DNA of 63,113 nucleotides, the filler included, from Asterionella formosa (Eukaryota): assembly GCA_002256025.1 (NCBI GenBank). It is 21 parts of 21 records of this genome, joined end to end, with 100 filler letters (N's around TTAATTAATTAA, not from the genome) between each part and the next. Parts side by side here need not be neighbours in the genome. Positions count along the whole stretch, not along the records: positions 6,038 to 8,953 come from NKIB01014657.1; positions 9,054 to 11,968 come from NKIB01014658.1; 19 more parts are not named here. The stretch is one strand, 5' to 3'. Made by a program: the position numbers and the translations under genes. Positions within the stretch are counted from its first letter, which is position 1. Every line of letters begins with the position of its first letter. Shown one piece after another: positions 1,919 through 60,489 of the stretch. Below the pieces are notes generated by a model. That model saw nothing but the letters and a program-made list of their open reading frames with translations. It had not been told where the DNA came from and made no database searches.

Positions 1919-2113
1919 TGAGCAATCCTGCACATCGAACCAGATGTATTTAGGGTTAGGGTTATATCAAATATGTCGGAATTGTATAATGAGAGAACTC
2001 GACTAACACCCATTCTATACTTTGATGTCAGTTCAGGAAATGAGTTGTACATAAGGATTAATTAATAAACTCATATATTCAACAAATACTACTACTTCTA
2101 GTTAGATACTTCA
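1919..2113 (+). mobile_element. 5' LTR of a Ty3/gypsy retrotransposon
   Basis: 195 bp, TG...CA. Near-identical to the LTRs at 31832-32031 and 35666-35860, and lies directly upstream of gag. Confidence 0.93.
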
Positions 2114-3023: not shown

Positions 3024-5543
3024 TTTTGCCAAGAAGATCCAGGTACAGCCTACACACAAAAGGATGTTGTAAAAACGGAGCTACTTAGCATTTTACTTGG
3101 TAGTAGGTCACCATTATATCTTTATGATGCAATTCTTAAATGGCATGTCTCTTCTCAAATGGCAGGAATGACGATTTTAGAAGCTGTTCCTCAACGTCGA
3201 AACACATATCTGAAAGATCTGTTTACCCGGTTTGAGATGGAAGACCAAAAACCATGTGTTAAGGCAGTCACCCTCCACTGTGGTAGAAGTGTCGACGTTG
3301 TTTGCTTTGATTTTCTTGTTGCAATCAAGAGCTTACTTTCCAATCCCAGATTGATGCATCCCAATAATGTGTCATTTGATTTTTCTGATCCCTGCAAGGC
3401 TCCACAACCGTCTGATGTCCGTTCAGAATTACACACCGGGAGTTGGTGGATTGACGCTCACAACTGTCTGTGCATTCAACCTAATGATTTTCTCGTCCCT
3501 CTCATGTTTTTCATTGATAGAACACACACTGTGGAAAATTCTAAATTCACCATGGAGCCAGTTTTGTTTTCTCTTGGGATTTTCCGTACAACTGTAAGGA
3601 ACAAAGTCATTGCTTGGCGCCCCCTTGGTCTAATACCAAAACTTGATGGTCAGAGTCTTGCATTGAACAAAAATATGACTGCCGACGATAAGTGCAAGGA
3701 TTATCACACAATTTTGGCAATTATATTGTCGGGAGTTCAAGAGACTCAGAAATCTGGTGGCTTCAAGTATAATTTCAATTTCCATGGCAAACAGCATAGC
3801 CTGGTTGTAAAGGTACCGGTCGGGTTGGTGCTTGGCGATGCGGAAGGATTGGACAATCAGTGTGGGAGGATTAAATATTACCTGAAAACTTTTCGTCTCT
3901 GTCGGGAATGTGATTGTTCATACGACAAATTAGATAAACCATCAATCAAATGCTCTCCAGTAGGGCAAGTGGGTTATGCTGCCCTATTAGGAATGAACGA
4001 CAAAACACTAATGGATGCCGTGTCACAACGTTTTATTACACCTTGCTGGTATGCGCTGGATTTTGGTGGAGATCCATTGGGAATCAATGGCCATTGCCCT
4101 CCTGAAAAGTTGCACTCAATACATGAGGGAATGATGCGTTATCTCATTCTTCTGTTCTCGGTAAAGTTCGGCACTGTTACCTCTGCTCAGGGGTTGAAAA
4201 ATAGAACCGCTTTTGATACATTATTCATAAAAGTGTCAAAGATGATGCAACATCAAAGCGATCGGGATATGCCAAGGTGCAATTTTCATGGTGGATTCCA
4301 TGGATGTTTTCCAAAGATAACAGGAAATGAAACCGTTGGAGTAATGCTTGTTGCTTGTTTGGTAATGGCTACAGACGCCGGAATCAAGCTTTGCAAGGAT
4401 AAGGTTGGAATGTCAATGCAGGAAATAAAAGACATCCAAATAATTTTCGAGGGCATGGTTTGTTATAATTCCTGGTTCAGCCAAGAAAGTTATGACGTAC
4501 ATCGATTGATGGAAATTGATTGTCAATCCATTGTCAAGTACTACACAAAATTAGTCAAGATTTTCCCAAGAGAAACGACAGAGCAAGGCTGGAAAATGAC
4601 AAAGTTTCATCAGCAGATGCATACTGTCCGAAATATCGAACGGTTTGGCAGTCCGCAAGTTTTCAATGGTGGACCAATGGAAAAAAATTTAAAATTCCTT
4701 TGCAAGTTACCAGCTAAAACATCTCAAAAACGACATCACCTAATGGACCTTCAATCTGGACAACGAATTATCGAAAACATTGCCATAGGTGTTGCATGTC
4801 GGGAATTTTTGGGAAAAGATCCTTTTGAACATGACGATACAGATTCGCTCGCCGATGATGGTTCTACTAATGAAACACCAAGCACTGGGACTGACAGTAT
4901 AAGCACATCTACAGGTGGTGCACGCTTTATCTTAAAGTTACAGGAAAATAATGGTGGATTCGCTATTGCATCTGTCACTTCCAATTCGGCGACTATAAAG
5001 ACATCAGGAGTTGACCTTGATTTAATTCGATTTCTAGGAAAGGAAGTGCTTCCCTTCATAACCAAAAAGTCAATTGAGGTCCTGTGTGAACACAAACGAG
5101 ATGGAAATACTTTCCATGCCCATCCCAATTATTTGGGACAGGGGTCTTGGTATGATTGGGCCGACTTCAAATGGATAGACGAGGAAAGTGGTATACCTTA
5201 CATAGTGTTGGGGAAAATCTTTGGTTTTGTATTGCTTGGGCCTGAATTTGATTTTACTGATCCACGATTGTGTGCATCACTCCGCAACGAAACAACTGGA
5301 ATCTTTGCAATTGTGAACTCATGTAAGGATCCAAGTGAGAGTTTATTTAATAGCCGTCGTTCTAAAATGTTTGAGATAGCTCACCTGATGGGTTATGAAT
5401 CAGGAAAGAGAAAACAGCTCATGTTTGTTACAGTCGATTGTATTTCTGCTCCTGCTGTTGTTGTCCCTAATATTGGAGGAATACCTGGGTCGGTATTACA
5501 AGTTAAACCTCAGCATACTTGGCAATCTTTTTTCTCATTTTGA
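3024..5543 (+). CDS. Plavaka-type (CACTA/EnSpm-related) transposase, 5' partial
   Basis: Frame is open from the contig start (FCQEDPG...) for about 839 codons. Motifs: ELHTGSWW, PLMFFIDRTH, EPVLFSLG, AWRPLGLIP, VLGDAEG..NQCGR, CRECDC, LHSIHEG, KFHQQMH..NIERFGSP..FNGGPME, FHAHPNY..WYDWA. Confidence 0.8.
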   Translation, partial: FCQEDPGTAYTQKDVVKTELLSILLGSRSPLYLYDAILKWHVSSQMAGMTILEAVPQRRNTYLKDLFTRFEMEDQKPCVKAVTLHCGRSVDVVCFDFLVAIKSLLSNPRLMHPNNVSFDFSDPCKAPQPSDVRSELHTGSWWIDAHNCLCIQPNDFLVPLMFFIDRTHTVENSKFTMEPVLFSLGIFRTTVRNKVIAWRPLGLIPKLDGQSLALNKNMTADDKCKDYHTILAIILSGVQETQKSGGFKYNFNFHGKQHSLVVKVPVGLVLGDAEGLDNQCGRIKYYLKTFRLCRECDCSYDKLDKPSIKCSPVGQVGYAALLGMNDKTLMDAVSQRFITPCWYALDFGGDPLGINGHCPPEKLHSIHEGMMRYLILLFSVKFGTVTSAQGLKNRTAFDTLFIKVSKMMQHQSDRDMPRCNFHGGFHGCFPKITGNETVGVMLVACLVMATDAGIKLCKDKVGMSMQEIKDIQIIFEGMVCYNSWFSQESYDVHRLMEIDCQSIVKYYTKLVKIFPRETTEQGWKMTKFHQQMHTVRNIERFGSPQVFNGGPMEKNLKFLCKLPAKTSQKRHHLMDLQSGQRIIENIAIGVACREFLGKDPFEHDDTDSLADDGSTNETPSTGTDSISTSTGGARFILKLQENNGGFAIASVTSNSATIKTSGVDLDLIRFLGKEVLPFITKKSIEVLCEHKRDGNTFHAHPNYLGQGSWYDWADFKWIDEESGIPYIVLGKIFGFVLLGPEFDFTDPRLCASLRNETTGIFAIVNSCKDPSESLFNSRRSKMFEIAHLMGYESGKRKQLMFVTVDCISAPAVVVPNIGGIPGSVLQVKPQHTWQSFFSF

Positions 5544-7598: not shown

Positions 7599-8339
7599 TC
7601 AGTACTCGCCGTGAGAAAATTTACCCCCAATTTCAAAGCCAAATGCGCTCTCGAGACTGACATCTTCCTCGTCGTCGAGAACGGCGCCTTTCAGTTGGGC
7701 TCGCTCGTAGCTCTCAACATCATCGAGCATTGCCGAAGTGGTTGCAGGCTTGGAAGCGCTGGATACCTGCGAAGTCGCGTCCAAGACGGACTGAATCCAA
7801 GAAGCCAAGTAGGGCGAATCGTCAGAAGGACGAAATTGCATGAGGTCCAAGAACTTGAGCTCTTGGCAAGTCAGCTCCAGGGTTCTGGTGGTTGACCCCA
7901 CCTCATCAGGAATCTCAACAGAGTAGGGAATACCATCCGAAGGCACAGTGCGAATTTTCTTGGTACGTACGATATCCTCCCCAAGATTCACTCTCTTGTT
8001 CGAAGTGGGCTTGGGTGGGCCCATCATTGAGTGAGAATGACGTTTGAGAAAGTTGCGACTCGCAACGGGGAGGGCGCACATTGCGCAGTATCGAAACTTC
8101 CGGCCGCTGGAGGCACAGTGAGCGTTGGAGCAGGAGAGCTCGTTGCCGTGTTTCGCGTCAGCTGGAATATCAATATACGAGTTCCATGCATTGTGGTTGT
8201 CAGATATACCTCGGGCTTTACATGGGACACGCGAGATGCGGCGGGCGCCTGAAGAAGCATTGCTGTTGGTGGTGGGCTGACAGAGGAGGTCATTAACCAT
8301 GTCAGTTTCAGGCAAGGTCGTGATAGAGGATGCCATCAT
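7599..8339 (-). CDS. Hypothetical protein with a Cys/His-rich putative zinc-binding domain (diatom-type family)
   Basis: 246-aa ORF in GC-richer sequence. Motif VPCKARG..HN..YIDIP..KHG..CS...C...G.KFRYC..C..PVA.RNF.KRHSH. Confidence 0.8.
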   Translation of the reverse strand: MMASSITTLPETDMVNDLLCQPTTNSNASSGARRISRVPCKARGISDNHNAWNSYIDIPADAKHGNELSCSNAHCASSGRKFRYCAMCALPVASRNFLKRHSHSMMGPPKPTSNKRVNLGEDIVRTKKIRTVPSDGIPYSVEIPDEVGSTTRTLELTCQELKFLDLMQFRPSDDSPYLASWIQSVLDATSQVSSASKPATTSAMLDDVESYERAQLKGAVLDDEEDVSLESAFGFEIGGKFSHGEY

Positions 8340-9062
8340 CGCATTTGTGATGGAGAGAGATAACCTTCAAAGGACAGCGTATTTTTGTGAAACACATGGC
8401 GGGGGTGCTGAATCGAAACAGAGCAAGATACCGGTACCCGGTACTCTCGCCGGAAACGACGTCGATAATTAATTACCGGTACAAAGTAGTTATGTGAGTG
8501 TATTACCAGTATGTGTGCACCTTTAAATTGATTAGCCATCTATTTTCTGTCGTGGTTGCTAGGTACCAGGGTACCACTTGCTTTCACCCTTGCGACGACA
8601 GGCAGGCGCGTGTAAGCTACAGCTGTGCCGCCGGGCCGCTGCACCATTTCAATCGTTCCAACTTCTTCCTTTTATCAACAACTATATACCAGGGTGGTTA
8701 ACCCTGGTACTGGTATTCCATTGGTGACCTCCTTGATGTTCATAAAAGAGTACCAGTACCAGGGTACCCTGGTACCAGGTACAGGTATACACCAGTACTG
8801 GTACAAGCTGGTATCAATTCATATCTACTCGAGTACGTATAAGCTGTGGAGTACTGGTAATGGTTCAACCGGTCATTTTGATGTACTCCGCATGGGTCCT
8901 CAACGGCTTTCGGAGTAGAGCATGCCCTTGTTTATGGCCTCGTTTCATCAGACNNNNNNNNNNNNNNNNNNNNNNNNNNNNNNNNNNNNNNNNNNNNTTA
9001 ATTAATTAANNNNNNNNNNNNNNNNNNNNNNNNNNNNNNNNNNNNNNNNNNNNTCATATATT

Positions 9063-9677: not shown

Positions 9678-10841
9678 TGTTTACTTTCCCCGCTGCCTGC
9701 TATACAAAAGTCCTGTTGCATTCGCTTCAGTTCCGCACCAGTGGTGAGATGTTCTAATTTTTTAAACATTGATTCTATCTATATAAATATATGGACTAAA
9801 ATACCGGTAGTACCGGTAGACTCTTTACGGTACCAGGTACCATAAAACCCGGTGTCTTGTATCCCCCCATGGACCTGTACCCCCCTTGTACATCTTGGGA
9901 CAACACTCCCAAATATTTTATGTCTAAAAATACACACATGATATCATAATTTGTAACATAAGAGTTCACCCAATAGCTCATTGATTGTTAATAGCTTTTC
10001 TCTGTTAATTCCCCCATGAGCATAAGCTAAACTCTAATTTAAGCCACATCCTTTGCATTCTTGTTGTTGCACATCACACATTGATAGCCTATTCTAAAAT
10101 GTTCTTTTTTGCTGACAAGAACAAGCTTGCTTCAACTGATGTGAAATGTCAGACTTGGTACTAGCTAGCTTCTTGACATGGCAAGCACAGCACCGCCATT
10201 TGACTGCTAATTGGACAAAAGTGGAGTCCACATCTAGAGTATTTTATTTATTTTACTCATGAAAAGTAATTTTTTGATTGCTATGAATCAATATTATTTT
10301 TCTTTTCCTAGTTTGAGCTAGGGATGGCTCAAATGCATAAACCTTGCTTAATCTAACCAATGACTGTATTTAAGCATATGCAAATTGCTGGAAGTGGTGA
10401 AACCTAAATATACCTTGAACAGCTTTAGGCAGTTGCACATACTTGACAAAATTTACACCTTGAACTGTGTAAGGATGGGCTGCAACCTTATAACATAATA
10501 GTAAAGATAGCGTCTAATATTATGACTTGACTAATATATGTGTTAATCATTTTTATAGCGCATTCTTACTAGTCTATTTTCAGACTTGTCGTCATTGTGC
10601 TCCATGGCCCACCATAAAAGGTAAGGCAGTGGAATTTTGGATAGGCAGTCACTTCCTTGTGCAGAAGTAGGGTGAAAAAAATTGTGATAGTGTTGTTCTT
10701 GGATTGTTTCTCATATAGTGCACTGTTTATTCAGCCGGAGAATTGGATAGCCAGTGGTGATTGGGTAAAGGAATTTCTTTATGTCACCAGTCCTTGGTGC
10801 TGTTTCTCTGTTGGTTTCTTTTGTTTTGATTGGTCTGTCAC

Positions 10842-12068: not shown

Positions 12069-12697
12069 GTCGGGCGGTTGATGGTGGCTAGGAAGCCGTC
12101 AATAGCACCAACACATCCTCTCATCATGCCCTCTGAGCTTTTGCATTCAAAGCTGGAAGCCAATTTGATAAATTCTTCTTGTTCTTTTGGAAAAACAATT
12201 TCGAGTTCTCCACAGTTTAGTACAGCATCAATGAATAGATCACGACATCGATAAAGTGAAGCAATGCTACAACCGTAGGCATGACGAATGTCGATGTAAC
12301 TGCCACCAGCCAGCCATCGCAAACCAATGGCTACCACAATTTCGGGAATTATGGGCTCAGAAGTGCCACATTTGGAATAATTCCCTGCAATCTGAATTTC
12401 CAGCATGGAGGTGAGTTTTTTGAATGCTCTGTGTGACATTCTGTATGTCTTCTCGAAAGCAATCTCGTGATTGAGTTTCTCGACATGTGATTGCCAGGAG
12501 ATTCTTTCGTGGTGCCACTTGTGCCTTCGTTGTCGTCGTCGTTCAGATGACTGAAGCTGCCGTTTACAGCGTCGCCTTTGTCGTTTGGATGAGTGTTCTT
12601 TTTCCTCTGCTTCCTTAGCTAAATGACAGAGGAAGAAGAAATCAAGATCACTATTGTCATCGTCATTATCATCAAGTAAATCAAATGGTGACGACAT
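12069..12697 (-). CDS. PIF/Harbinger (DDE_Tnp_4-type) transposase, N-terminal part
   Basis: Motifs F..YRMS...FKKL, VAIGLRWLAGGSYIDI and GCVGAIDG (first catalytic Asp). Runs into the spacer. Confidence 0.88.
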
Positions 12698-12991
12698 GAT
12701 TCATGCAAATGTGTGTTTTTAATATAATATTTAGTTTCCCGGTAATTATATTTTGTTGTTGCTTGATATCAAGACCATCATTATATTCCGGAGGGATATA
12801 CACATGATCTTCGCCAGCATGTTGCCGTTGAAGATCCATGTTACTCCATGATACAATGTGATCACAAATTAGTGATACAGTGACACTTTTGGAAAGAATG
12901 AAATTCAGTTCAAATCGAGTTACCGTTGCTAATACATTTTCAAAAAAATTCAAATTCCGTGATACACGAAAAAAAATGATAAGAACGGCCC
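12069..12991 (-). mobile_element. PIF/Harbinger element, 5' end
   Basis: The minus strand reads TAA|GGGCCGTTCTTATC at 12994-12978, matching the Harbinger G-rich terminus and TAA/TTA target. Confidence 0.6.
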
Positions 12992-13250: not shown

Positions 13251-13321
13251 GCGGAAATTGAATGACGCTACTTTTATAAACTACCGGTAATATCGTTACT
13301 ACCAATGCATACTACATATTA

Positions 13322-13630
13322 ATGATGTCAACAACAAGATCAGCACCAATCAACAGCCGCCAAGATGGGGAGTTGCTTGGACTGAATGCTCCAGCAATGG
13401 GCGCTCATGTGAGCAACATGAATGCTGTGGGAAAGCGGTTAAGGCTGATGATGTGATCAGGTTCAAGCTGGCTGTTGTGGAGGATGTATTGGGCAAGCCA
13501 TTGGAGACGATCAAGGCTGTCTTCATCAAGGACGGCTTGGAACTTTGCACTGTTAGGTTTCTGGGCAGAGAAGTTGCAGCATTGCCTTCACAACGGAGCA
13601 AGTACATCGACAAGTTTGCGCAGGTGCTGA
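13322..13630 (+). pseudogene. Small Cys/His protein remnant (HIRAN-like), frameshifted and truncated
   Basis: Reads MMSTTRSAPINSRQDGELLGLNA[fs]SSNGRSCEQHECCGKAV..DDVIRFKL..IKAVFIKDG.ELCTV.FLGRE. Homologous to 23270-23540 and 57211-57620. Confidence 0.65.
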
Positions 13631-13633
13631 AGG

Positions 13634-13783
13634 CAATACCCTTCTCGGCGGCTACTTGCCTTCTCGTATACATGTGTACTCGACTGGGATGGCGGGCGCC
13701 ACTCGTACGGTCAACCTACTCGTGCCATCCCAGTCGAGTACACATGTATACGAGAAGGCAAGTAGCCGCCGAGAAGGGTATTG
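13634..13783. repeat. Perfect 60-bp inverted repeat with a 30-bp loop (fold-back mini-element)
   Basis: 13634-13693 is the exact reverse complement of 13724-13783. A decayed copy lies at about 45634-45765. Confidence 0.95.
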
Positions 13784-14560
13784 TTGAGGCAATTCCCGCT
13801 CTAGCTATCGTCGCGTCATTCGCTTACCTACTGCCCATAAATTTAGCATAAATGTCAATTTTAGCCTACTATTGCCCATCATATAAAATATATTTTGCAT
13901 ATTTCCTATCTTCACCTCGAAAATTGCCAAAGGTCCGATATTGCCCATCATTAAAATATATTTTGTATATTTCATATGTTCGCATTTTGGCAAGACAACA
14001 GACACCAATTGCCCCTCGGTTTTCTAGCCCTGGGATTGCCGAAATCGGCAAGGGGTCTACTTAAGGAAACCATTTTATATACTATTCAGATTCTAATAAT
14101 TTATATCTAGAATTCACCTCGTTTTTGTTCGTCTCCTGAAAAGTGGACTCCGGCAATTCACCTTTCACCATGCCAATCGTCGTCCATCATGACCGGTTTG
14201 AAGCGAAATCAGGTCCGTGATGACGCCAGTAGCGATTCTTTGCCTAACGGATGCGGTTGATTGTTGGATTGCTTGTCTTCTCGAGGTATTCATGTAGTCG
14301 CATCGTCCATATTTCGTCGGACGCACGATGATATCGATACATCTGATGTTGGTGGCAAGTTTTTGCTCCGGTCATGTATGTAATGATGCTTAACGGATAT
14401 TCTACCGGTACCGGCAGTCATCTAGTCTACATACGTACGTGGTACTAAAAACAACCATGCATGCTTTAACGCTTACTTTGAACACGTTATAATATTATCT
14501 CTGTAGACTCGGTATTATTTTTACGAGACCTGAAATGTTGAATTATATCGTTCACATATG
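13784..14560 (+). repeat. Interspersed composite repeat containing the hairpin TTGCCGAAATCGGCAA
   Basis: 13784-14064 matches 45766-46046, and 13930-14560 matches about 21355-21985. Confidence 0.88.
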
Positions 14561-22820: not shown

Positions 22821-23269
22821 CATAGTGGATGAATGCGGTTGGTTACATTGCAAGCGATTGATGACTCTATTTTATTCAAAAAGTGTAGCATGTGACTAGA
22901 AATATAACTTTATAGTCTGTTTAAGCATGCTCTATTGTTATATTATTGATTTGTAGAAGCGATTCCATAGCATTAATGTTAAATAGCTCAAGTCGTAATT
23001 TACGATTCGATTTTTCGTGTTGAAGCTAGTAGAACTACAGTTGACGTGAATCACTATAAATACTAAAGGAAATGACTCTAGAGTCTATTAACTGTTCTAT
23101 AATATTATAATATATAGTATAGAATGCATTTCTATATAGTTATTGAGGACTGCTACAATCAAATCTACTCCTGGCCTTGAATATCCTCCATCAAGCGGAA
23201 TGAAGCCATTCCGGCATTCCTCTTGCCCTTCTTTCTCATCATAGAATTTTCATTGACATCATACAGTTC

Positions 23270-23540
23270 TAGCACCTGCGCAAACTTGCCTATGTGCAAA
23301 CTTGCCTATGTACTTGCTCCATTGTGAAGGCAATGCTGCAACTTCTCTGCCCAGAAACCCAATAGTGCAAAGTTCCGTGCCGTCCTTGATGAGGACAGCC
23401 TTGATCATCTCCAATGGCTTGCCCAATACATCTTCCGCAACAGCCAACTTGAACCTGATCACATCATCAGCATTAACCGCTTTCCCGCAGCATTTGTGTT
23501 GCTCACATGAGCGCCCATTGCTGGAAGCATCGTCTACAAA
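23270..23540 (-). pseudogene. Second copy of the small Cys/His (HIRAN-like) ORF
   Basis: ASSNGRSCEQHKCCGKAVNADDVIRFKL...IKAVLIKDGTELCTIGFLGREVAALPSQ. Confidence 0.7.
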
Positions 23541-25674
23541 TAGAAAACATCTAATTCGTGTGATGCATCTTATAATGGTGATCATATGATCATTTAAATT
23601 CGATTTATCATCTAATATGAATAATATTTATTGTCATGTAGAATATTGTATGTATATATATATCGATACATGGATTTTAATATGTATACCATCACTGGCT
23701 GCAAACATCAACAACCGCTCAATCTGAATGCGTGTTGCATGAGTAGGATAATCGTACATGGGTATGTGTACATAGCTGCTGTAGCATTCTATAGCTTTGA
23801 AGACATGATAGATATTCATGTTCATGTTCGAGTCTACTTGTGTGTGAGAACTGGTACCAGGTCTACTGTATCATCTATTGTACTACCTGGTACCCTGGTA
23901 TTACTTGTAAAAATCAACCCAAGTTGTATTTTTCTGTAGGCCTCAAGTATAGTTCTACTGAGAATGGAAAAATACCTTGACGGTATTTTTCCGCACTTGA
24001 TCAGGGTAAAAGTACAGTACTGTNNNNNNNNNNNNNNNNNNNNNNNNNNNNNNNNNNNNNNNNNNNNTTAATTAATTAANNNNNNNNNNNNNNNNNNNNN
24101 NNNNNNNNNNNNNNNNNNNNNNNGGTTTGTATTGATGGAAGCGATGCTATTTTGAAGGATGCCAATGAAGATTTCAAGATTGTCGACTTTATTCATTTGG
24201 CAAAGATTGTCGGAGATACATAGAAGCTATGAAGTGTGCTAAATCCGTTTCATTTGTATGATTGACAGAGTTGAACTGAGGTGAATGTACCTACTCGTAA
24301 TTTTGGATGACGGAAGTCTACAGATATAGCAGTGACTAATAATTGAAGTCTTGAGATTTAAAAAAGCTCTACATCGTAGCAAGATTCTAAACTGTTACTG
24401 TCTTCATAAAACGCTGCAAATTTTCTACAGTGCCAGTGGACCAGCTAATCTACCTATGGACCATACTTTATTCTACATAGTACCTGCCACTTTACTAAAG
24501 TGGAAGTCAAGAACAAAAAAAATACAGTAGATGACTGGTTTTTCTATCATTTTGAAATTCGACAGTGGTTTTGGTCTAACATGATAAAATCTAGTGAGGT
24601 CACTAAAGACATTTAAGAAGTGGTGTATTATTAGTAAGTAACCTCATTTATTGAGTAATTTACACTTTTGCTAGTAGGGTAGCTTGAGTAGCACTTCATG
24701 GCGTTACCAGCCTTGGCGTTCTAAGTTACTAATCAACCCAGTATCAACCCAGCAAATGTGGTGACTTTGGTCCCTGAAACGTGGGGAAAGGGCATCCCTC
24801 AAGTGGGAGTCGAATAATTTTGGGGTGCTGTGGTTGTGCTGTGGTCATGCTGTGGTCATTCTGTGGAGGTGCTGTGGGGGTGCTTTGGAAAACCTCAGTC
24901 TTGTGCAGAGATTAACTTCCTGAGAAGAAAGTGGATAGCTTGGTTTGGACTTGTTGAATCTGAGAAGATGGTGGCATCATTATTCTGTTTATCATCTTTT
25001 TGCTCTTCTGTTGGACCCCGAAGTCCATCAGGCAAATCTCTGTTGAACCTTTGTCTTTGATGATAATAGCTGGTGTTTTATTTGCCCGATTTCCTTCCTT
25101 TGGAAGAAATTCGAATTCTTGATTTGTTTTTGTACTACTAGAATGCTGCTTTTCTTTTTGAGGTCATATTCCATTGCTGTTCTTTTTGCCCATGCCAGTT
25201 TGGTGGCAAATTCTTCTTACTTATTGGCCTTCAATGGTGTGACAATATGAATTTTTTCCATTCTACCTCATCACAGTAGTATTGGAATTGTTAAACCTTT
25301 ACATAGTAGAAAGGTCCTGCTGCTGATTCATATCATGATGCTATATGCTAAAGTAACTTTCCATTGCGTTGCATTCAGAATACCGATCACTAGTGATGAG
25401 CTGTACCAAATCTGCAGAGAATTATACTCACATATTTATTGCTCGCCATCATCAGTTCATAGGAACTGCTACACTATATAAAATGCGAGATGGCCAAAAA
25501 ATTGTGAAATTAGGAAAATATACACGTAAAACTTTCTGTTAAATTGGATTGGCAGGGCTAATATATATATATATATAAATATACACAAATGTACTGGGTA
25601 TGCGAATTGTTCCTGCCATGCATGAACCAGCATTATTATTGATGCGACATAAGCATCCATGAGTACTATTTCCT

Positions 25675-26202: not shown

Positions 26203-26910
26203 GACCGATTGTTTGCTTTTGTACACCGAATTCTCGTGACAGCACGCCTTTAAAATATACTGGTACCGGTATGCCTGTCTTTATACGGTAGTAGCCTATC
26301 ACCAGTTGCAGTACCTGGTACCCAGTCTACTGTTCTGTTAAAACGCTTCGTACTCCTTCCCACACACTGAGGTCCTTTACGTAGATTCTTACGTGCTAGT
26401 AGTATTCCCTAGTACCACTAACTTTTCTCTCCTCTGCTTCTACCCTATTTTAGCCTTCTCCTGCTAGGCAGATAAACTAATTGACCTTCCTGTCAATTAA
26501 CACACTCTTTCCTTAACTGATAATCTAAAATTATAAGCCAAACTCAATTTTCCTTTCCATGCATCTTTGCTTCCCACCAAGTCGTTCCAGACTCCCTTCG
26601 AATTTCCACTTAAATTTTCCATAGAAATCTTCAAATCTTTGATCTCATTAGGCAGCTGATTGGAATGGCATGGCATTGCAAAATTTGACTCGTTGGATTA
26701 CAATTGAGTCCACAATCCTCATGACTCGAACTAATATTCTTGACAGTATACTGGTCTCAGAGGTAGCATGATGTGTATTATATATCAATTAATAGCTATA
26801 TTTATCATACCTATTATGTACTTTACCACATAGCCTACTGAGGAGCCTTTCCAGCAGTGCCTATGATATGTGATATTTACATGCATAGGAATTATACCAG
26901 AATTTACGTA

Positions 26911-31831: not shown

Positions 31832-32031
31832 TGAGCAATCCTGCACATCGAACAGATGTATATAGAGTTAGGGTTATATCAAATATATCGGAATTCAATA
31901 ATGAGAGAACTCGACTAACACCCATTGTATACTTTGATTTCAGTTCAGGAAATGAGTTGTACATAAGGATTAATTAATAAGCTCATACACCGGTATTCAA
32001 CAAATACTACTACTTCTAGATAGATACTTCA
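31832..32031 (+). mobile_element. 3' LTR of the gypsy element
   Basis: TG...CA, preceded by purine-rich AAGTGTGGGAGAG (PPT). Matches 1919-2113. Confidence 0.93.
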
Positions 32032-32261
32032 CCAGGTTCCGGTACCGTAGTCTACCGGTAGTTTCCTCGGAGCAGTGTACCGGTACATCCTTTCTCTACG
32101 GCAGTTTCTCCCGTCATTTGTTCATGTGTTTATTATAGTCATAAACCGGTAGGTATATCAATATATATTCTACATGTAGAAAACACAGAGAGTGAAAAAC
32201 GCGCACTCACCTGGTCAAGTACTCCAGGTAGCGGTAGTACAGGTGTGTATGTAGTATCAGC

Positions 32262-32315: not shown

Positions 32316-32464
32316 AGCTAATCATCATCTTGATGCTTTAATTGTATGCCTCACCTCACCTCACCTTGCCTCCCTTCGCCTTTGTTGTTGTCTAAAGCAA
32401 ATGAGAGGATCAACAGCAACTCTGTTGTAGCGCCTCCCATGGAATAAATCAAGTTTGTTTTTGC

Positions 32465-32808
32465 TCATTCATTCATTCATTCATTTATTGATTTATTCAT
32501 TTATTCATTTATTGATTCATTGATTCATTGATTTATTGATTTATTCATCTATTTATTCATTTATTTATTTATTCATTTATTTATTCATTTATTTATTTAT
32601 TTATTCATTTATTTATTTATTTATTTATTTATTCATTTATTTATTTATTCATTCATTCATTTATTCATTCATTTATTCATTTATTTATTCATTCATTTAT
32701 TCATTCATTTATTCATTTATTTATTCATTTATTTATTCATTTATTTATTCATTTATTTATTCATTTATTTATTCACTTATTCATTCATTCATTCATTCAT
32801 TCATTCAT
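32465..32808. repeat. (ATTC/ATTT)n compound microsatellite
   Basis: About 340 bp of mixed ATTT/ATTC tetramers. Confidence 0.97.
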
Positions 32809-32820
32809 GCACGTCTCAGA

Positions 32821-33059
32821 ATGATATTGCAGCAGCTGATTGTTGTCGGCTATTGTTGTGGTTTGGCATTCTCCACTATTACTACTACCACAACTACTAC
32901 TGAGACTTGTCGAAGTGGCATCAGTTGGCGCGATCGCAACTACTCAAATAATCCAGTCACCATTCGAGAATCCAATTACATTTCGCTTCGAGATGATTCA
33001 GGTATTTCTGCAGCTGTCTGTCATCGCACCTTGTTTGGTAACATTTCACTCGATCCTAT
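32821..33059 (+). CDS. N-terminus of a probable secreted or membrane protein (3' partial)
   Basis: MILQQLIVVGYCCGLAFS hydrophobic start followed by a Thr run; open into the spacer. Confidence 0.4.
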
Positions 33060-35665: not shown

Positions 35666-35860
35666 TGAGCAATCCTGCACATCGATACAGATGTATATAG
35701 GGTTAGGGTTATATCAAATATATCGAAATTCAATAATGAGAGAACTCGACTAACACCCATTCTATACTTTGATGTCAGTTCAGGAAATGAGTTGTACATA
35801 AGGATTAATTAATAAGCTCATATTTTCAACAAATACTACTACTTCTAGTTAGATACTTCA
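35666..35860 (+). mobile_element. 3' LTR of the gypsy element
   Basis: TG...CA preceded by the PPT. Matches the other two LTRs. Confidence 0.93.
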
Positions 35861-39180: not shown

Positions 39181-39828
39181 CCGTATACTTCATTGTCCTG
39201 GACCCCCCAATGTACACTGCCGTGACTGAATTTGACTGATTTTACTTAAGGGGGGCCCAGGACAATGAAGAGATTTCCCTTATAATGGACCTAAGTAAAT
39301 TTCTTTAGTTCTACAGGATAGCGCACATTTTTCTAAGATGTATTAATATGACAATTATTTCCGTCTTGTGAAAAATGAGAGAGTTCTTCACCTCGCAAGA
39401 AAAACGCGACTTCATGTTGTTATCGGCGATCTCAATTTTCGTTGTCATTATTAGTGTTATTACTTTACTTCTTTTACGATTGTATTTTCCATGTCATTCT
39501 TAATACAGGTAGCAAGTAGCATAGCGTCGTTCTCTATTTTCGTGGAGATAATTGGTATTTTCGTCATGGTCAAGGTTGCGACAACATCATGAAGGATTCT
39601 CCAGCTGCTCACAGCCACTACCTGTCGTCTCTTGTGTTTTGTATGTACAAAAGAATCGCAAAATGGTAGCTAAATTATTACATACTAGTGCCTACGAGGA
39701 CAAAAAGAATTATGGCACGTTACTTTGTCTATGACAAGAAAATTATTGGGTGTTTGGTTCCACCTCGAGAAAAATGTACAGGGGGGTCCAGCAACCATAG
39801 GGGGGGTCCAGGACAATGAAGTATACGG
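39181..39828. mobile_element. Complete 648-bp MITE (Tc1/mariner-pogo type) with 28-bp TIRs and TA TSD
   Basis: TA|CCGTATACTTCATTGTCCTGGACCCCCC ... GGGGGGTCCAGGACAATGAAGTATACGG|TA, with internal subterminal copies of the GGGGGGTCCAG motif. Confidence 0.95.
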
Positions 39829-46091: not shown

Positions 46092-47231
46092 GGTTGCGGC
46101 CCCGCAGTTAAACATTGCGAGGTCCTGTTTTCCCAAAATAATTATATGATGTACCTTAATCCACACATTACGTACAATTACATAAAGTAGTTAAAGGTAA
46201 AATTAGCTTTCACCAATACGACCACTTTGCACATGCTTAGATACAGTCATGGGTCAACTTAGGGGTATGTTCTATCTTCGGATATGGTAAGGACCTCATT
46301 TCTGGAAAGAAACTGCAGTTATGTATTGAAGAATCGTAACTATCGCAAAAAAAATTAAAAAAAGGGAACGAAGCTTTTCTAAAAATCTAAGATACATAAC
46401 TGCAGTTTCTCTCCAGAAGTTAACTGCTGACGTTATAGGGTACACAGGTATCTACTTTTATCTAGATGAAACCCCGCAGATGTAGAGCAATCCTCCTCCT
46501 AAAAGTCGACCCGATCGGCTTTTTCAACAGTCGCCAAAATATTGGAATCGGAATTTGTAAGCGCAAAACGTTCTAGTACATTAAGAGTCTTGCGTAGGTA
46601 TGTTTTGCTGCTTAACTCTCTCAGTCCGAAAAGACTCCAGGGTACTTTGCCGCATCACTACACATATTCTTATTGGTTGAATTGAATTTACTCACCTGCT
46701 CCAGATTGGCTAAAGTATTCCGGTCTTGTAAAATCACGCCAGCCACACTTGAACCACACGTATTACATGTACCATACCAGCAGGTAAAATCAGCACCGGT
46801 GCACTGGTACTAGTTTCATCCTGTCTTCCATCGTCATGAACCGAGAATATGTACTACCGGTACTCTGGTACTTCGGTCCCTGGTTACGCGCTGATCTTCA
46901 TTAAACCAACATACAACAGCGTAGATTCAATAAAACGCATAAACACGAACCATGAGCATACATGTTGGCATACTCCTGATTTATATATGTGTTTTGGCAT
47001 TGAGAAAAATCATGTCTACATACAGCAATGTAGATATAGTATGAACGTTTAAAAATCATTTCTGTTTGTTTGAAATGGAACTCTGTCAATCTGGCGCTGA
47101 TTCCCATTTAATTCAAATATTCAAATGGACTCGAATCATGGGAATTCATAGTAGTAAACTCCCTGTTCCACGCAGTTTTTACAATCCTTGTGATATTTTC
47201 TTCAAACTAGGGTTAAGCCGGGGCCGTAACC
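46092..47231. mobile_element. Complete non-autonomous Kolobok-like element with TTAA TSD
   Basis: TTAA|GGTTGCGGCCCCG ... CGGGGCCGTAACC|TTAA. An empty site with a single TTAA is seen in the host-element copy at about 36420. Confidence 0.85.
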
Positions 47232-47974
47232 TTAAGTCAGAGTAGTCAAACAAAGACTTCTTACGAGTAAAACGTAAATGTAACATCACTAAACGCAGCT
47301 TTCACCAATACACACTCTTTCCATATGCTTAAATACAGTCATTTATCAAAAAAGGGGTATAGTTCAACGCTATATATCGTCAGGATATAGGATCTGGCGA
47401 GAAACTGCAGAAAGGAAATTCGGTTATTTTACTAGGCCAAAAAACTATGCTGAAACTCGTTTATTTGGCCTAGTAAAAAACCCGAAGTTCCTTTCTGCAG
47501 TTTCTCAAGGAAAGTTAACTTCTGGGGCTATATGAAGATTACTTATGTACTTAACTCTTCTTCAAACCCTGCAAACGTTGAGCTATCGTTGTCCGAAAAT
47601 TCGACAATATCGGCCTTTTCAACGGTCACCAAAATGTCGGAATCAGAATCTCTAATCGCCGAAACGTCATCATCGGAATGACAGTCTTGTGCTAAAATTT
47701 TTAGTCGTAAAATCTCGTGTACAAAAAGTTCCATTGTATTTGCCCACTGCATTATTCATATTCTGATTGGTTGTCCTTATATCCGTTCGATTGGCACGGT
47801 TTGCGAGGTCTTGCAATCCCACGCCGGCCACACTGGATGCACATGAAGCATTTTCTTGGGTGTTGACCGATCCTACCCGTATACCGGTACTATCCGTATG
47901 GAGTAGGAATACCAAGTACAGGGTAGACCTACCAGTACAAGGTAGCTGATCATCATTGGTCATAATACAAGGTA

Positions 47975-48899: not shown

Positions 48900-50093
48900 C
48901 CTTCCTTTGATATATATATATATATGTTGATTGTAATGGAAGAGTTGGAACAGGAATCGATTTTTGTTGTGAATCCTTGTGTCATGCAAACGATAGAGAT
49001 GATGAAGGCTACAGCGGCTGTTCGTGACATCATTTTACTCAGTACTACCGGTATACTGGTACCTGTATTTTCATTCAGTGCGTTCAATTTATACCACAGG
49101 AAGAAGTGCATACAATTATTGTAACATATATAATGTACGTACATGGTGCCATCCATGTGTGTACATGATGTCCATGACAGAATTATAAGGGCACCCTGGC
49201 ACGAAAAGTGTAAAATCCCTCTGTTCCAGTATAAATGCAACACATTCAGCAACTACTATAACCCAACTCAATCCACATCCTTTAATAAAGCCCTCTGTAG
49301 AAGCAAAAAGCAATATGCATTTTCTATGCAAGACCGTGCAGGCAACAGGTACATCAGTTAGATTAGTATATTTAGGAAAGTATTATGCTAAATAGCAATA
49401 TTGATTTTACTTGTATTTTGCTAGCCAGCATAATTGTTTTGCTCTACATGCGAGTATCTCTACCTCCACATTTCCACATTTAGCCTTCATGAATGCCATT
49501 GCAGATTTTTCCTCGCTCTCCATTTATTCTAATTGAATACATAACAACTCCTGTCTCTGCAATTCATTTTCCCCATATGTGGAATCTTGGAATTGTTTCT
49601 GCTGTGGCATGATGAAATTTCTTCCAATTAATTCTAAAATGTGAGAAGCTCCGAATTCAACTTCCTTGTACAAAACATTTGATATGATACAGCAACAGCC
49701 TCAATCAACAACAAGTCTACATTGTCCCTGGTCTCCTCAATCAAATACCACTCCTGACAAGCCTGCAAAACACGGAAAAAGATAAATCATTCCTATGGGC
49801 TTTTCTAGAATGAGCTAGCATTGCAATCAGACTGCAGAAAAATTTAGCATAGGAGTACTATGTAGAATACACGCAATGTCAGACAAAGAATAAAGCTCAA
49901 AAAACATGTTCTCACTGAACCAAAGAAGGTTAATGCATGTTACCATAAATTATAAGAAGATTTAACATTATAAATAATAAAATCCAAGCAGTGTTGGAAG
50001 CACATTTTCAAGTAAAATGAAGCATTCATATGAATTGTGAGATCTGCATGGATAAGCAGCCTTTACATACTTGCCATTGTTAGATTTGGGATT

Positions 50094-54502: not shown

Positions 54503-57210
54503 AGTTGGACATAGTCCCAGATACTCATTCAGAAGGTTGATGTAGGAACTTTATGTACAAGAAAAGAGCAAAAATGTTCATTTGAAATTGAACGCTAACT
54601 AGACTGAGACGCGTTCGGCAATACCTAGAAAGGGAGTTAAATTAAAAAGTTCTTCTTTACGGCAAAAATGCCAATTGCCCAATTAACTTGGAGCATGGAT
54701 CCACACACGTCGCTATTTGCATGTTTCGCTAGCAATCCATCAATTTCATTCCTGAAACAAGGAAATCCAAACCCAACCTAGGAATCGTAACTATCCCAAA
54801 AAAGGGGCTACGAAGCTTTAAAAAAAAATCTACGGGGGATAAGTACCACTTCTCTTCAGGTATGGACTCAATATAGATCATACCCCTAATTCGAGCAATG
54901 ACTGTATATGTATAAGCATATGCAAAGTGGTCGTATTGTTGAAAACTAATTTTGATAAAATGGAGTACTTCAATATGTATTATAGTGCTCGCAGATGTCG
55001 CGAAATCAGGTATTTTCTTGGTTTACCGAAAACCCGGAATCTGTTTGAATTTCATTACAGTAAGATAAATCTCGTGTTATCCAAATGACAATGTCGATCG
55101 CCGTTCTCTTCCTAGATAATAGTAATTCATTTTCCCCTTTTTCGGATATGCTCAATCATATCATTGCTTAGAGCGTGAGCTATTGCAATGGCTGGTAGAC
55201 GAGGACTTGTGTGTAGCGAAATCCATAATTTTATATTTTTAGCATAATGACTCGATTCAGTTGAATCAAAGGACCAGAAAACTACTACAAGGGAAATGTA
55301 TTGGCAATATATAGATTAAAAACAGTATATATGAAATAAATATGGCTTTGCTGTACTTGTACCGGTATAAGTCTAGTCACCGGCAATGCAATTGTTTCAT
55401 GAGTTTCATGATGGCTCATTTGTTTTTGCTGGTACCTGGTACCAGGTTACATAGCTAAAGTCGATTCACTCTTCATCAGCATGCTCTCAAGGCATCCCGG
55501 TATACCGGTGTATAAATAAATACCTGGTATGGTCCGGGGTACGGGTACCTGATATGGAGTATGAACAAACCATCATGGTTTATACTAACATTTTGCTATA
55601 TTGTTTATTGCCTGTTGCATAAAGTCGCTCACTAGGAGAATTGAATTGGTTCTTGATTAACATGGTGTAATTGATAGCAATACTGCCAGCATCCTCAGCA
55701 CAATAACAACATAAGAGATGTATGCATAGCTTATAATCCCAGGCAGGTGCAACGAAGATTGGAATTAGGAACTCATTTGGAATGAAGGATCAAACAAGAA
55801 AGGCAGACAGGGGCATCATTCAAAAATTGATCAAATGCAAACTCGAAAATAGGAGATGAAACTTTTGACAACACTTCTCTGGTCTCTAGTGTCTGCATTA
55901 TCATTGTTGAACTCATCGCCAGCAGTCGTGCTGCTTGTTGCCTGTAAGCCCTTGTTTTACTCTTTGTTGCATTCTGTGTCTTTGTCGATAGTCATTGAAG
56001 TACTATTCTCAATGCTGCCATTGAATTCATTGTTCCTGATTGTGTCTTTTCTTGATTACCACGGCTAAATGCATCATATTTCAGTTCTATGCTGAAATTT
56101 ATGCTTTTGCCACTGCCCCTAATACTCAACAATACGACCACTTCAACAGTTTTAACTCCATGACAAGGACACAAACACGCATGAACACAATATGAGCTCA
56201 TTTTGAAAATTCCAAAATAGAAGACTGCAAAACAGGCAAGGGAAATTACGATGATGGTTGTTGGTACTATGCTTTGATCTTGTTGGATGGCTGGGATCAG
56301 AAGTAATAATAAGTGTCCTGTGGGTGCTGACACACTTTTACAGCATGAGTGAAATGGCTGGACATCAAGATGGAAACACAGTTCTGATTTGCTGATGTAT
56401 CAGAATGACATTATTTATTTTTTACTATATTGTAGTGCATACTGCTGTGGTGGTACAGACTACTACTAGCTAACAATGGCTGACTGGAAGGCTGCCAATT
56501 TGTCTAATCATCACCACCAACACGTGTCTTCATCATTCTTAACTTTCTCAAAGAATGTAGTATGACTGGGGGTGGATGATCAAACAAGAACATCAAAATA
56601 AAATCTCTTATGCTCCTCCTGATAGAATCACTATTTTTAAATCCAAGTTGTTAGGGTTAGCGTTTGTCACAGAATGCCTTCCAAACAGGCCGTGTGAAGT
56701 CCAAAAAGGTCCAAAACGACCATAATAGTGCATATTTTGTATAATAATTTTAATTTATTAATTCCGAAAAATGCCTTCAAAACTAATGCGCACCTCTCCC
56801 TCCGTCCATCATCATATAGACTACCTGGTACCTGGTACCTGGTACTGGGTAATGGACTTTGTACCCCCTTGCCAGAATTACTAATGGTATTCAAAATATC
56901 AGCCATATAGTCAATGACGTGCGAGCGAGGTTTGATAAAAACCACATCACGTCACAAATTACCACACTTCCTGAACAATCATAAAAAAACACTAAAATGG
57001 TCGCTGCGCATGATAGGACGACTCTTCTGTTCTTCCTCTTGGTGATGGCATCAAGTCATTACACCATTACGGAAAGCTTTAGGATGATGGCTCCTTATCA
57101 TTATGGAGTGNNNNNNNNNNNNNNNNNNNNNNNNNNNNNNNNNNNNNNNNNNNNTTAATTAATTAANNNNNNNNNNNNNNNNNNNNNNNNNNNNNNNNNN
57201 NNNNNNNNNN

Positions 57211-59028: not shown

Positions 59029-59285
59029 GTGCTTGTTGAGAAGAGGTGGTGGCAAGAAAAAAGGGGGGTCTGGCATCTGCATTTCGCTCGAGATGAGCAA
59101 AAGTGGAAGTCGAAAAAGCCGAAAACTTTTTTTCAGATGTAGTTGCCAATTTTAATCTTTCTATATAGAATGTATACATGGATCGGTAGCTTAGAACAAG
59201 CTGCACCAAAGGGCTGTTGAGCCGGAGAAAATCGTAGGAGTCAAAATGGCCCCGGATATATTTGAATTATCGATGCAACTGTTAC

Positions 59286-59300: not shown

Positions 59301-60489
59301 CCTACAATGCCTACCAGCACGCATGATGATTGTGTTTATCTTGGGTTCACCTGGATCTGATGCAAGTCGAGAGCTGTAGATGTAATGTACCTCCATGGAT
59401 TCAGTAGGCTTAGAATTCTGTCAAGTTTCTCAAACTCAATTTCGTCAATTGCAGTCTGCCTTGAACATGGTCATATCATCGGTAGTTGTTGTTCCTCCTT
59501 GCCATACTGTCCATTTTACATGACAGAGCTCTGTTGGTGAATAGATTTTCCATTAGATCTAACGTATTACTCAGCATACGTTAAAAAGTGATTGATTATT
59601 CAAATATTTTGACATGTTTATGATAATTTTGATATATCAATGGCAGTGTCTGTATGAAGATCAATCAAATTTGTACATTAGGCTAGTAGCATACACATGT
59701 TAGGTTATAATCGGTTAAATAAAATTGATGATATAGACTATTGATCAAATGTTGTGTTATGTTGGTGTGGTCAATCAAATTTGTTTGTCAGATTACTTTC
59801 TTACACACATCAGGTTACGCATAGATAGAAGTCATATATATTAGTGGCTTATCAAAAATAATCTGCTAACAAAATGCTTCGATATATTGATACATTGTTT
59901 GATTGATCAATAGCTGTTGTTCTTTGATCAATTATTGTTTTAGCGAAGGTTATGACTTTACTTAGATCACATGCTTACATGTATGTTAACCTTGTACCCG
60001 ACGATTCTATCAGAATGAATTCTGTGCAACAACAGTGCGTTCCTTGTTGCCATTCCGATTTGAATGCTCTACCTGTACATGCTTTGATCCAATTCTTGTA
60101 CAAGCCATGTGNNNNNNNNNNNNNNNNNNNNNNNNNNNNNNNNNNNNNNNNNNNNTTAATTAATTAANNNNNNNNNNNNNNNNNNNNNNNNNNNNNNNNN
60201 NNNNNNNNNNNTTTTTCGACGGAAGGTCGACGTTTGATGTACCCTGGTACTAAATCAAAAATAATCGCAAATAAGAAAATGCAAAACTCAAGACTGGTGA
60301 TTAATTGTCGCTACGTGGTACCGGTACCGGTACATGGTAAACTAAGTACAATACTTATATGTGCTGCCTGATGGATTCAGGGTACCTGGTACCAGGTAAC
60401 AGGTACCAGTACTGGTACCTGGTATCAAATACCCTGGTATGTACCAGGTTGGTCGTACCCCTTGGCGCAGTTATGCTGTATAACTTTAT

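What the first reader, a model, noticed from the sequence alone, without database searches (positions are those of the whole stretch)
8425..8875. Clusters of TA-CCGG-TA / TA-CCWGG-TA / TA-CTAG-TA words look like accumulated transposon excision footprints near promoters
Seen: dense runs of TACCGGTA, TACCWGGTA, GGTACC and TACTAGTA-like words lie upstream of genes (8425-8875, 9800-9845, 26255-26325, 49040-49065) and at 32035-32085, 55430-55550, 56820-56850 and 60315-60450. Repeat copies show that they arise as insertions at TA. One LTR has CTCATA-CACCGG-TATTC (31982) against CTCATA-TATTC (2070). 14402 has CTA-CCGGTACCGGCA-GTCAT against CTA-GTCAT at 21830. About 46850 has an extra TACCGGTACTCTGG relative to about 36890. 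Resident TA-flanked elements start with CC (39181), CT (59298) and CA (47975), so keeping 2 nt from each end gives TACCGGTA, TACTAGTA and TACATGTA. Known: Tc1/mariner excision leaves TA + terminal bases + TA. Inference: repeated insertion and excision in open chromatin is rewriting promoters and adding CCGG/CCWGG sites.
Basis: partly seen in the sequence, partly recalled or inferred. Interest (0 to 1): 0.72.

Follow-up and report, generated by a model that had tools for sequence, protein, structure and literature searches.

The report
Transposon excision scars in diatom promoters
The short palindromes piled up in front of this diatom's genes are most likely scars left each time a cut-and-paste jumping gene left a TA site, tens of thousands of them, and one scar type rebuilds its own target and is also the landing site of an unrelated retrotransposon.

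Summary
The words are real and genome-wide: TACCGGTA 28,528 sites against 1,718 for the control, GTACCWGGTAC 17,533 against 117. Between repeat copies they appear as clean insertions at a single TA, and all 11 polarisable CCGG/CCWGG cases are gains. Adjacent CCWGG units differ in 45% of 5,576 pairs, which rules out plain slippage. Two donor classes match two scars. CCG-ended pogo elements have no flank bias, like TACCGGTA. CCA/CCT-ended mariner-fold elements prefer GTAC, like TACCWGGTA. TACATGTA is not enriched, TACTAGTA is absent from the window, and the 47975 element is not TA-specific. Scars are about 8 times denser between divergent than convergent ORFs. A gypsy-type LTR family inserts into TA-CCWGG-TA (45 of 70 flanks). 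No excision was seen directly, no TSS data were used, and no effect on expression is shown. The window is 21 unlinked contigs. The scan noted the scar reading and the gypsy targeting before, on other pieces of this genome and (scars) in another diatom.

The parts
8429..8859 (.). Scar cluster: 13 TA-core-TA words (CCGG x2, CCCGG, CCAG/CTGG x5, CCAGGG/CCCTGG x3, CCAGG, CAGG), partly chained through shared TAs; 90-520 bp upstream of the first ATG (8339) of a minus-strand frame
7602..8339 (-). Open frame of unknown family whose 5' region carries the cluster
   Evidence: no Pfam match; one 38% relative in metagenome contigs
9802..9839 (.). Scar chain (CCGG, G, CCGG; then CGG, CCAGG) 125-160 bp upstream of the ATG at 9677 (minus strand)
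9840..9900 (+). Decayed end of the 2.46-kb CCG-ended pogo-type element, sitting on the last TA of the scar chain
   Evidence: 2 mismatches to the TIR of L168/L173; DDE_1 transposase E 1e-21
39181..39828 (+). 648-bp CCG-ended MITE, TA on both sides; candidate donor of TACCGGTA
   Evidence: 40 scored copies at 97-100%; 262 end matches; 92 of first 100 TA-flanked; same TIR at DDE_1 loci L161, L171, L172
35946..35959 (+). Decayed end of the CCA-ended element family at a GTA|C site; candidate donor of TACCWGGTA and TACCAGTA
   Evidence: family; fold
31832..32031 (+). 3' LTR of a Ty3/gypsy-type element, with the extra six bases at about 31984-31989; followed directly by CCAGG (target duplication) and the 32035-32085 cluster
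35666..35860 (+). 3' LTR of the same family, followed directly by CCTGG-TAC
   Evidence: RT_RNaseH then a weak Integrase_H2C2 match at 33655-34719
14403..14416 (+). Double CCGG insert in repeat family A, absent from the 21830 subfamily; one ancestral event
46855..46870 (+). Extra TA-CCGG-TA-CTCTGG-TA in a hypervariable part of repeat family B (TTAA-flanked element)
26258..26320 (.). Scar cluster 55-120 bp upstream of the first ATG (26202) of a minus-strand frame
49036..49067 (.). Scar cluster upstream of minus-strand frames, one with a SEP domain
55431..55550 (.). Scar cluster, no gene assignable
56822..56850 (.). Tandem (TA-CCTGG) x3 array, no gene assignable
60312..60450 (.). Mixed CCGG/CCWGG/CCAG cluster near a contig start
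59280..59298 (-). End of a CTCCCTC-type (Stowaway/plant-mariner-like; label recalled, also in PMC4423477 Table 1) element; not shown to be a donor of the abundant words

Best explanation
The words are accumulated excision footprints of TA-targeting Tc1/mariner-superfamily transposons in a freshwater diatom. SHOWN: they arise as short insertions at one TA; their cores start and end with the terminal bases of resident TA-flanked elements; each scar type carries the flank preference of its candidate donor; they are densest 5' of ORFs; arrays are built of mixed units. INFERRED: excision leaves the first 3 nt of the element as a 3' overhang on each flank, and end joining pairs the overhangs in the best register and fills in. 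CCG x CCG pairs by its terminal CG and gives TA-CCGG-TA. CCT x CCA pairs by one T:A and gives TA-CCWGG-TA. CCA x CCA gives CCWGG or CCAG/CTGG. CCA/CCT elements prefer GTAC, and a scar at GTAC yields two GTAC sites, so the target doubles with every cycle and arrays grow. The product, GTAC-N3-GTAC, is also the target of a gypsy-type integrase, which duplicates the central CCWGG. The 5' bias most likely reflects insertion preference for accessible promoter DNA (inferred).
For: Genome counts. Indels: among 876 indel contexts between repeat copies, 16 of 24 non-tandem TA-anchored 6-nt indels have core CCGG and 3 of 6 7-nt ones CCWGG. All 34 polarisable cases of the C/G, GC, CCGG and CCWGG classes are insertions (9 CCGG, 2 CCWGG), against 100 insertions and 42 deletions for non-TA indels. 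TA is the junction dinucleotide in 105 non-tandem indels at a genome share of 0.06, against 53 for AA/TT at 0.18. Donors: 93 DDE_1 matches; CCG, CCA, CCT/CCA and CAG ends; the CCA-family protein folds best like Mos1, SETMAR and Sleeping Beauty. Flank match, G before the TA: TACCGGTA 26%, background 25%, TACCWGGTA 78%; CCG MITE ends 25 of 92, CCA ends 78 of 92, CCT/CCA ends 49 of 68 (hand counts of the TA-flanked rows among the first 100 listed). All 13 short paired elements have CCT at one end and CCA at the other. Feedback: 5,576 adjacent CCWGG pairs against 593 adjacent CCGG pairs. Position: 4.7 words/kb in divergent, 2.2 tandem, 0.6 convergent intergenic DNA, 0.11 in ORFs. PMC9976928 (passages) reports that the pogo member Passer inserts near TSSs and leaves 0-4 bp footprints.
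Against: No site was seen both occupied by an element and as a scar in one lineage (one search tested one candidate and failed). Only 3 indel contexts show de novo CCWGG, two of them at one site and one close to a tandem copy. Canonical 3-nt footprints are hardly enriched (TACCGTA 38 vs 24; TACCATA 63 vs 65), so the repair rule must differ from Sleeping Beauty's. The two commonest small TA-anchored classes, TA-[C/G]-TA (34) and TA-GC-TA (21), have no identified donor; GC does not follow from any C-starting end. Scars outnumber the counted element ends (262, 174, 657) by tens of times, which needs long retention or many lost donors. Genes were defined as ORFs of 200 aa or more, not from transcripts. 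The six sample contigs were long ones that had already appeared in hit lists, not a random draw.
Confidence: 0.85

Rival explanations
1. The arrays are microsatellites: a few seed words expanded by replication slippage or unequal exchange.
For: Period-6 and period-7 runs exist; identical neighbours are 3,074 of 5,576 (55%), slightly above the 50% expected from independent events; tandem duplications of 2-4 nt are common here (173 of 876 indels).
Against: 45% of neighbours differ (1,500 CCTGG-CCAGG; 1,002 the reverse, by subtraction); mixed CCGG/CCWGG neighbours are common; single words appear at TAs with no local template; only 6 of the 110 six- and seven-nt indels are tandem copies.
Confidence: 0.04
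2. The words are selected cis-regulatory sites (binding sites of a host factor) that sit in promoters because they act there; the likeness to transposon ends is incidental, or the host factor tethers the transposons and the gypsy integrase to them.
For: Palindromic, fixed, strongly 5'-biased; several unrelated elements land in them. An earlier scan note mentions a published promoter motif in a relative; I could not find that paper.
Against: They also arise de novo inside decayed repeats and inside a MITE; they come as whole-block insertions; the flank signatures match two different donor classes. Selection could still retain some scars after they form.
Confidence: 0.07
3. The inserts come from a transposon-related process other than insertion followed by excision, for example abortive integration, or capture of short end fragments at breaks; this might also explain TA-GC-TA and TA-[C/G]-TA.
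For: Scars greatly outnumber resident elements; canonical 3-nt cores are rare and two classes have no donor.
Against: Duplication of the TA plus terminal bases is the ordinary product of insertion then excision; young near-identical donors exist; no fragment longer than 6 nt is enriched.
Confidence: 0.04

Closest known systems
Sleeping Beauty canonical footprint (cag or ctg between duplicated TA; PMC5224488, passages read)
   Same: TA duplicated, core taken from the element termini, product of end joining
   Different: Here the dominant cores are 4 and 5 nt (CCGG, CCWGG) while 3-nt cores are barely enriched; seen as a standing genome-wide load, not in an assay
Passer, pogo superfamily (PMC9976928, passages read)
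   Same: pogo-type DDE_1 transposase, footprints of 0-4 bp, insertion bias to the 5' end of genes and TSSs
   Different: Measured in human cells; no report there of scar accumulation, GTAC feedback or arrays
Mariner and other TIR excisions in rice (PMC4423477, passages read)
   Same: Genome comparison finds natural excision footprints; 3' overhangs derived from the TIRs
   Different: In rice only 8 of 94 excisions were clean and most had deletions or filler; here a few stereotyped words dominate
Tc1 germline footprint TA-CATG-TA of C. elegans (recalled, not read)
   Same: 4-nt palindromic core between two TAs
   Different: Explained by a 2-nt stagger; a 2-nt model cannot give CCWGG, and TACATGTA is not enriched here
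Sequence-preferring gypsy-group LTR elements of Drosophila (PMC3276498, passages read)
   Same: Palindromic target-site motif that extends beyond the TSD
   Different: There 4-bp TATA/ATAT cores and AT-rich motifs; here a 5-bp CCWGG TSD in an 11-bp GC-balanced motif that another transposon's scar supplies

Membership tests
Tc1/mariner-superfamily excision footprint | One ancestral TA becomes TA + core + TA | tested here: met
   all 11 polarisable CCGG/CCWGG cases are insertions
Tc1/mariner-superfamily excision footprint | Core consists of terminal bases of resident TA-flanked TIR elements | tested here: met
   CCG, CCA and CCT/CCA ends account for CCGG, CCWGG, CCAG; not met for the GC core, which is not claimed
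Tc1/mariner-superfamily excision footprint | Flank preference of the scar equals the target preference of the donor | tested here: met
   G before TA: 26% vs 25 of 92 (CCG class); 78% vs 78 of 92 and 49 of 68 (CCA, CCT/CCA classes)
Canonical (Sleeping Beauty-type) 3-nt footprint | Core is 3 terminal bases | tested here: not met
   TACCGTA 38 vs 24 and TACCATA 63 vs 65 expected, against TACCGGTA 137 vs 2.6; 2 CCG, 1 CCA and 3 CAG indels only
Tc1/mariner-superfamily excision footprint | Same site seen occupied and then excised | tested here: inconclusive
   L006 insertion and the TAG gain in L040/L050/L052 are at one TA but in different sublineages; strain contigs did not resolve indels
pogo-type transposon (CCG-ended donors) | TIRs, TA duplication, DDE_1 transposase | tested here: met
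   L168/L173: 2.46 kb, TA on both sides, DDE_1 E 1e-21; MITE TIR at three DDE_1 loci
Tc1/mariner superfamily (CCA-ended donors) | TIRs, TA duplication, mariner-like catalytic fold with conserved aspartates | tested here: met
   TA on both sides; invariant D241 and D390, near-invariant D428 in 49 homologues; top fold matches Mos1 (E 8e-4), SETMAR, Sleeping Beauty
pogo family in the narrow sense (CCA-ended donors) | DDE_1 profile match or sequence kinship to pogo transposases | tested here: not met
   0 of 49 homologues match DDE_1 at E 0.1; no tblastn hit to 30 DDE_1 loci; only an Atlas lead, DDE_1 on 35% of one cluster
Tc1/mariner superfamily (CCT/CCA MITE) | A matching autonomous transposase | not tested
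   Only about 96-bp, 735-bp and 1.4-kb non-coding copies were seen
Ty3/gypsy LTR retrotransposon with a sequence-specific target | LTRs, RNase H before integrase, 5-bp TSD, recurring target word | tested here: met
   TSD CCAGG in 2 of 3 full-length copies; the Integrase_H2C2 match is below cut-off (E 0.025)
Functional promoter element | Position relative to mapped TSS and effect on expression | not testable with these tools
   Only ORF-relative position was measured

The most novel reading that the evidence does not exclude
In this diatom lineage the upstream DNA of genes is being built to a measurable degree from transposon scars. A GTAC-seeking, Pfam-less mariner-fold family runs a self-amplifying ratchet (each scar doubles its target). 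The scar has become the sequence-specific landing pad of an unrelated gypsy integrase, which makes one element's footprint another element's niche. Host factors may now read these words as regulatory or methylation sites.
Probability: 0.45. Interest if true: 0.8.

Novelty: new variant of a known kind. Interest (0 to 1): 0.66.

Why it matters
Excision footprints are usually studied one at a time in assays and are thought too variable to leave a genome-wide signal. Here at least 46,000 exact words in 68 Mb record past cut-and-paste cycles, so excision rate, target preference and end-joining rules can be read from one assembly. Motif scans of diatom promoters could mistake these words for transcription-factor sites. 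A sequence-specific gypsy integrase with an 11-bp target, and a mariner-fold family with a GTAC preference, are both testable enzymes of possible use as tools.

Tried and rejected
Laying contigs of four runs on a word-rich 10-kb stretch was dominated by repeats and listed no word-sized indel; gap totals of 6, 7 and 34 letters over clusters are hints only. No allele of the finding's contig exists in the assembly, and metagenome contigs gave one distant homologue, so polymorphism at 8425-8875 itself is untested. A DDE_3 search of the genome found nothing. A direct insertion-to-scar lineage at the L006 site failed. A search for G-starting TA-flanked elements that could leave TA-GC-TA found no family in the roughly 0.8 Mb in hand. 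CpG decay alone for TACCAGTA/TACTGGTA is unlikely, since 45 of 84 have G on the 5' side, between the two donor classes; a mix is likelier. Loss of the LTR element as the source of CCWGG was rejected: doubled CCWGGCCWGG occurs 2 times in 380 kb. TTAATTAA enrichment is the contig linker. The first homologue search gave no named relative. A PDB sequence search with the CCA-family profile found nothing. Element ends relative to ORFs were 14 on the 5' side and 5 on the 3' side, with 37 unassignable: too few to settle insertion preference against selection. Literature: searches listed no paper on these words, on diatom footprints or on sequence-specific diatom LTR elements (listings only; the library lacks most subscription papers; supplements were not opened and the Passer footprint sequences are in a figure I could not see).

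Full report
Setting. The window is not one locus. It is 21 contigs of about 2.9 kb joined by an N44-TTAATTAATTAA-N44 linker. The assembly has 68.4 Mb in 15,436 contigs. The nearest named homologues of a housekeeping gene from this genome are diatom proteins, and the runs that hold its DNA are labelled algal, lake or freshwater where labelled.

Observation. In the window TACCGGTA occurs 26 times (0.54 expected) and TACCWGGTA 15 times (0.57). TACTAGTA occurs 0 times and TACATGTA 5 times (2.2). In 380 kb from six long contigs the counts against order-2 expectation are: CCGG 137/2.6, CCWGG 129/2.9, CCAG or CTGG 84/12.8, CCAGGG 12/0.5, CCCGG 10/0.9, GC 150/54.8, CTAG 18/3.7, CATG 15/11.2, CCG 38/24, CAG 66/53.7. 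These contigs were chosen for length from earlier hit lists. Genome-wide, TACCGGTA has 28,528 sites against 1,718 for the reversed control and GTACCWGGTAC 17,533 against 117. The finding's own cluster parses into 13 such words chained through shared TAs, 90-520 bp upstream of an ATG.

How the words arise. I fetched 30 copies each of three repeat families, aligned all fetched DNA against itself, and kept 876 distinct indel contexts of 2-14 nt with clean flanks. Among non-tandem, TA-anchored indels the cores are far from random: C/G 34 against A/T 2 (3-nt indels), GC 21 of 28 (4-nt), CCGG 16 of 24 (6-nt), CCWGG 3 of 6 (7-nt). A few contexts are the same event seen twice. Where three or more copies allowed polarity, all 34 cases of these four classes were gains; other indels split 100 gains to 42 losses. 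Clean examples have no local template: family B copy L081, family A copies L051, L054, L055, and one MITE copy.

Slippage test. Of 5,576 adjacent CCWGG pairs in the genome, 3,074 are identical, 1,500 are CCTGG then CCAGG and 1,002 the reverse. Independent events predict 50% identical and slippage nearly 100%; the observed value is 55%.

Donors. The genome has 93 DDE_1 matches and none to DDE_3. TA-flanked TIR elements fall into classes. CCG ends: the 648-bp MITE at 39181, with 40 scored copies at 97-100% and its TIR at three DDE_1 loci, and a 2.46-kb pogo-type element whose decayed end sits at 9840 inside the second cluster. CCA ends: a family up to 3.7 kb, with a relic at 35946; its protein has 127 homologues, some from a named diatom, matches no Pfam transposase, and folds closest to Mos1, SETMAR and Sleeping Beauty. 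CCT at one end and CCA at the other: a MITE of about 96 bp (13 of 13 short pairs). The 47975 element is TA-flanked in 3 of 8 copies and is dropped.

Linking scar to donor. TACCGGTA has G before it in 26% of cases, like any TA (25%); TACCWGGTA has it in 78%. CCG MITE ends have G in 25 of 92 TA-flanked rows, CCA ends in 78 of 92, CCT/CCA ends in 49 of 68 (hand counts of the first 100 listed rows; 8, 8 and 32 rows were not TA-flanked). This agreement is independent of the core sequence.

Mechanism (inferred). Tc1/mariner excision leaves short 3' overhangs made of element ends (PMC4423477, passages); a 3-nt stagger for Mos1 and Sleeping Beauty is recalled, and the cag/ctg footprint is in PMC5224488 (passages). 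With 3 nt, CCG against CCG pairs perfectly by CG and fills to CCGG. CCT against CCA pairs only by T:A and fills to CCWGG. CCA against CCA has no good register and gives CCWGG or CCAG/CTGG. CAG against CAG gives the canonical CAG/CTG, seen 3 times, and CATG was seen 0 times. No core longer than 6 nt is enriched in this family. A scar at GTAC gives two GTAC sites, so GTAC-seeking elements return; this fits 5,576 adjacent CCWGG pairs against 593 adjacent CCGG pairs and elements sitting at the ends of arrays.

Position. With ORFs of 200 aa or more as genes, the three main words total 109 in 23.2 kb of divergent spacers, 91 in 41.9 kb tandem, 7 in 11.6 kb convergent, 17 in 150.9 kb of ORF and 126 in 152.8 kb unassigned. 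Density is 3-5 per kb in the 800 bp upstream and 0.16-0.41 per kb in the first 400 bp downstream. 192 of 333 non-ORF words have a neighbour within 50 bp, against 54 for random TAs. Passer, a pogo member, prefers TSS regions (PMC9976928, passages), so insertion preference is the likelier cause; selection is not excluded.

A second element uses the scar. A gypsy-type family with 195-bp LTRs (403 end matches) is flanked by the word. Of the first 100 listed LTR starts, 76 followed the polypurine tract; of the other 24, 16 follow TA-CCWGG and 23 have TA at the same place. Of the first 100 LTR ends, 54 ran into the element body; of the other 46, 29 are followed by CCWGG-TA and 36 by five bases and TA. 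Some rows may be one insertion assembled twice. The duplication is CCAGG in 2 of 3 full-length copies. CCWGG makes up only 129 of 1,728 TA-N5-TA words but 17,533 of 22,291 GTAC-N3-GTAC words. The integrase may therefore read two GTAC half-sites, most of which the scars supply. Both 3' LTRs in the window end on CCWGG. Palindromic LTR target motifs are known in Drosophila but are AT-rich (PMC3276498, passages).

Against and open. No occupied-then-excised site was shown. De novo CCWGG rests on few indels. TA-GC-TA and TA-[C/G]-TA have no donor. Nothing shows an effect on transcription or methylation.

Prior knowledge. Eight paper searches (listings only) gave no report of these words or of genome-wide footprints in diatoms. 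Earlier AI notes of this scan, read after my own tests, reached the scar reading on other pieces of this genome and in another diatom, and noted the gypsy targeting and a ratchet idea; they are not independent support.

Verdict. Real feature; known kind of event at unusual scale with non-canonical cores. Confidence in the footprint origin 0.85; new variant of a known kind; interest 0.66.

Noticed in passing
window 1919-2113, 31832-32031, 35666-35860; G000 C1882:3800-8600 (L198): Ty3/gypsy-type LTR family inserts at TA-CCWGG-TA (45 of 70 listed genomic flanks) and duplicates CCWGG.
   Followed up: yes
indel catalogue over all fetched loci: TA to TA-GC-TA (21 contexts) and TA to TA-[C/G]-TA (34) are the commonest TA-anchored insertions; no donor element found, and no clear 5' bias for the C/G class.
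   Followed up: partly
G000 C5148:37676-41360 (L181/L182); window 35946: CCA-ended TIR family with a widespread transposase that has no Pfam match, a mariner-like fold, 37 residues between its second and third conserved aspartates, and a strong GTAC target preference.
   Followed up: partly
L215-L219; L027; C12763:34127-34861: MITE family of about 96 bp with fixed asymmetric ends (CCT and CCA), 657 end matches; autonomous partner not found.
   Followed up: partly
whole window: Twenty N44-TTAATTAATTAA-N44 linkers join size-sorted contigs; frames and repeats that cross them are artefacts.
   Followed up: yes
indel catalogue: Many 3-4 nt tandem duplications between repeat copies (92 of 3 nt, 31 of 4 nt); could be target-duplication footprints of other superfamilies such as the Plavaka-type element at 3024-5540.
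   Followed up: no
window 36480-37310 and 46430-47290; L058-L087: Abundant 1.2-kb non-coding element flanked by TTAA with GGTTGC ends, 74-86% between copies, with a hypervariable scar-rich middle.
   Followed up: partly
window 27137-30048: Whole contig bounded by inverted repeats of about 190 bp.
   Followed up: no
L168, L173; window 13291-13848, 23262-23627: The 2.46-kb pogo-type element carries a second frame of about 145 aa on the opposite strand; similar frames occur in repeat family A regions of the window.
   Followed up: no
window 32384-32900: Long compound 4-nt repeat tract (ATTT/ATTC).
   Followed up: no
rows: 6 of 100 MITE ends read TA-CCCG instead of TA-CCG, which could account for the minor TA-CCCGG-TA word.
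   Followed up: no
window 12071-12700 and 58299-59298: Fragments that look like a PIF/Harbinger transposase and a plant-mariner-type transposase (recognised from recalled motifs; no Pfam match above cut-off).
   Followed up: no
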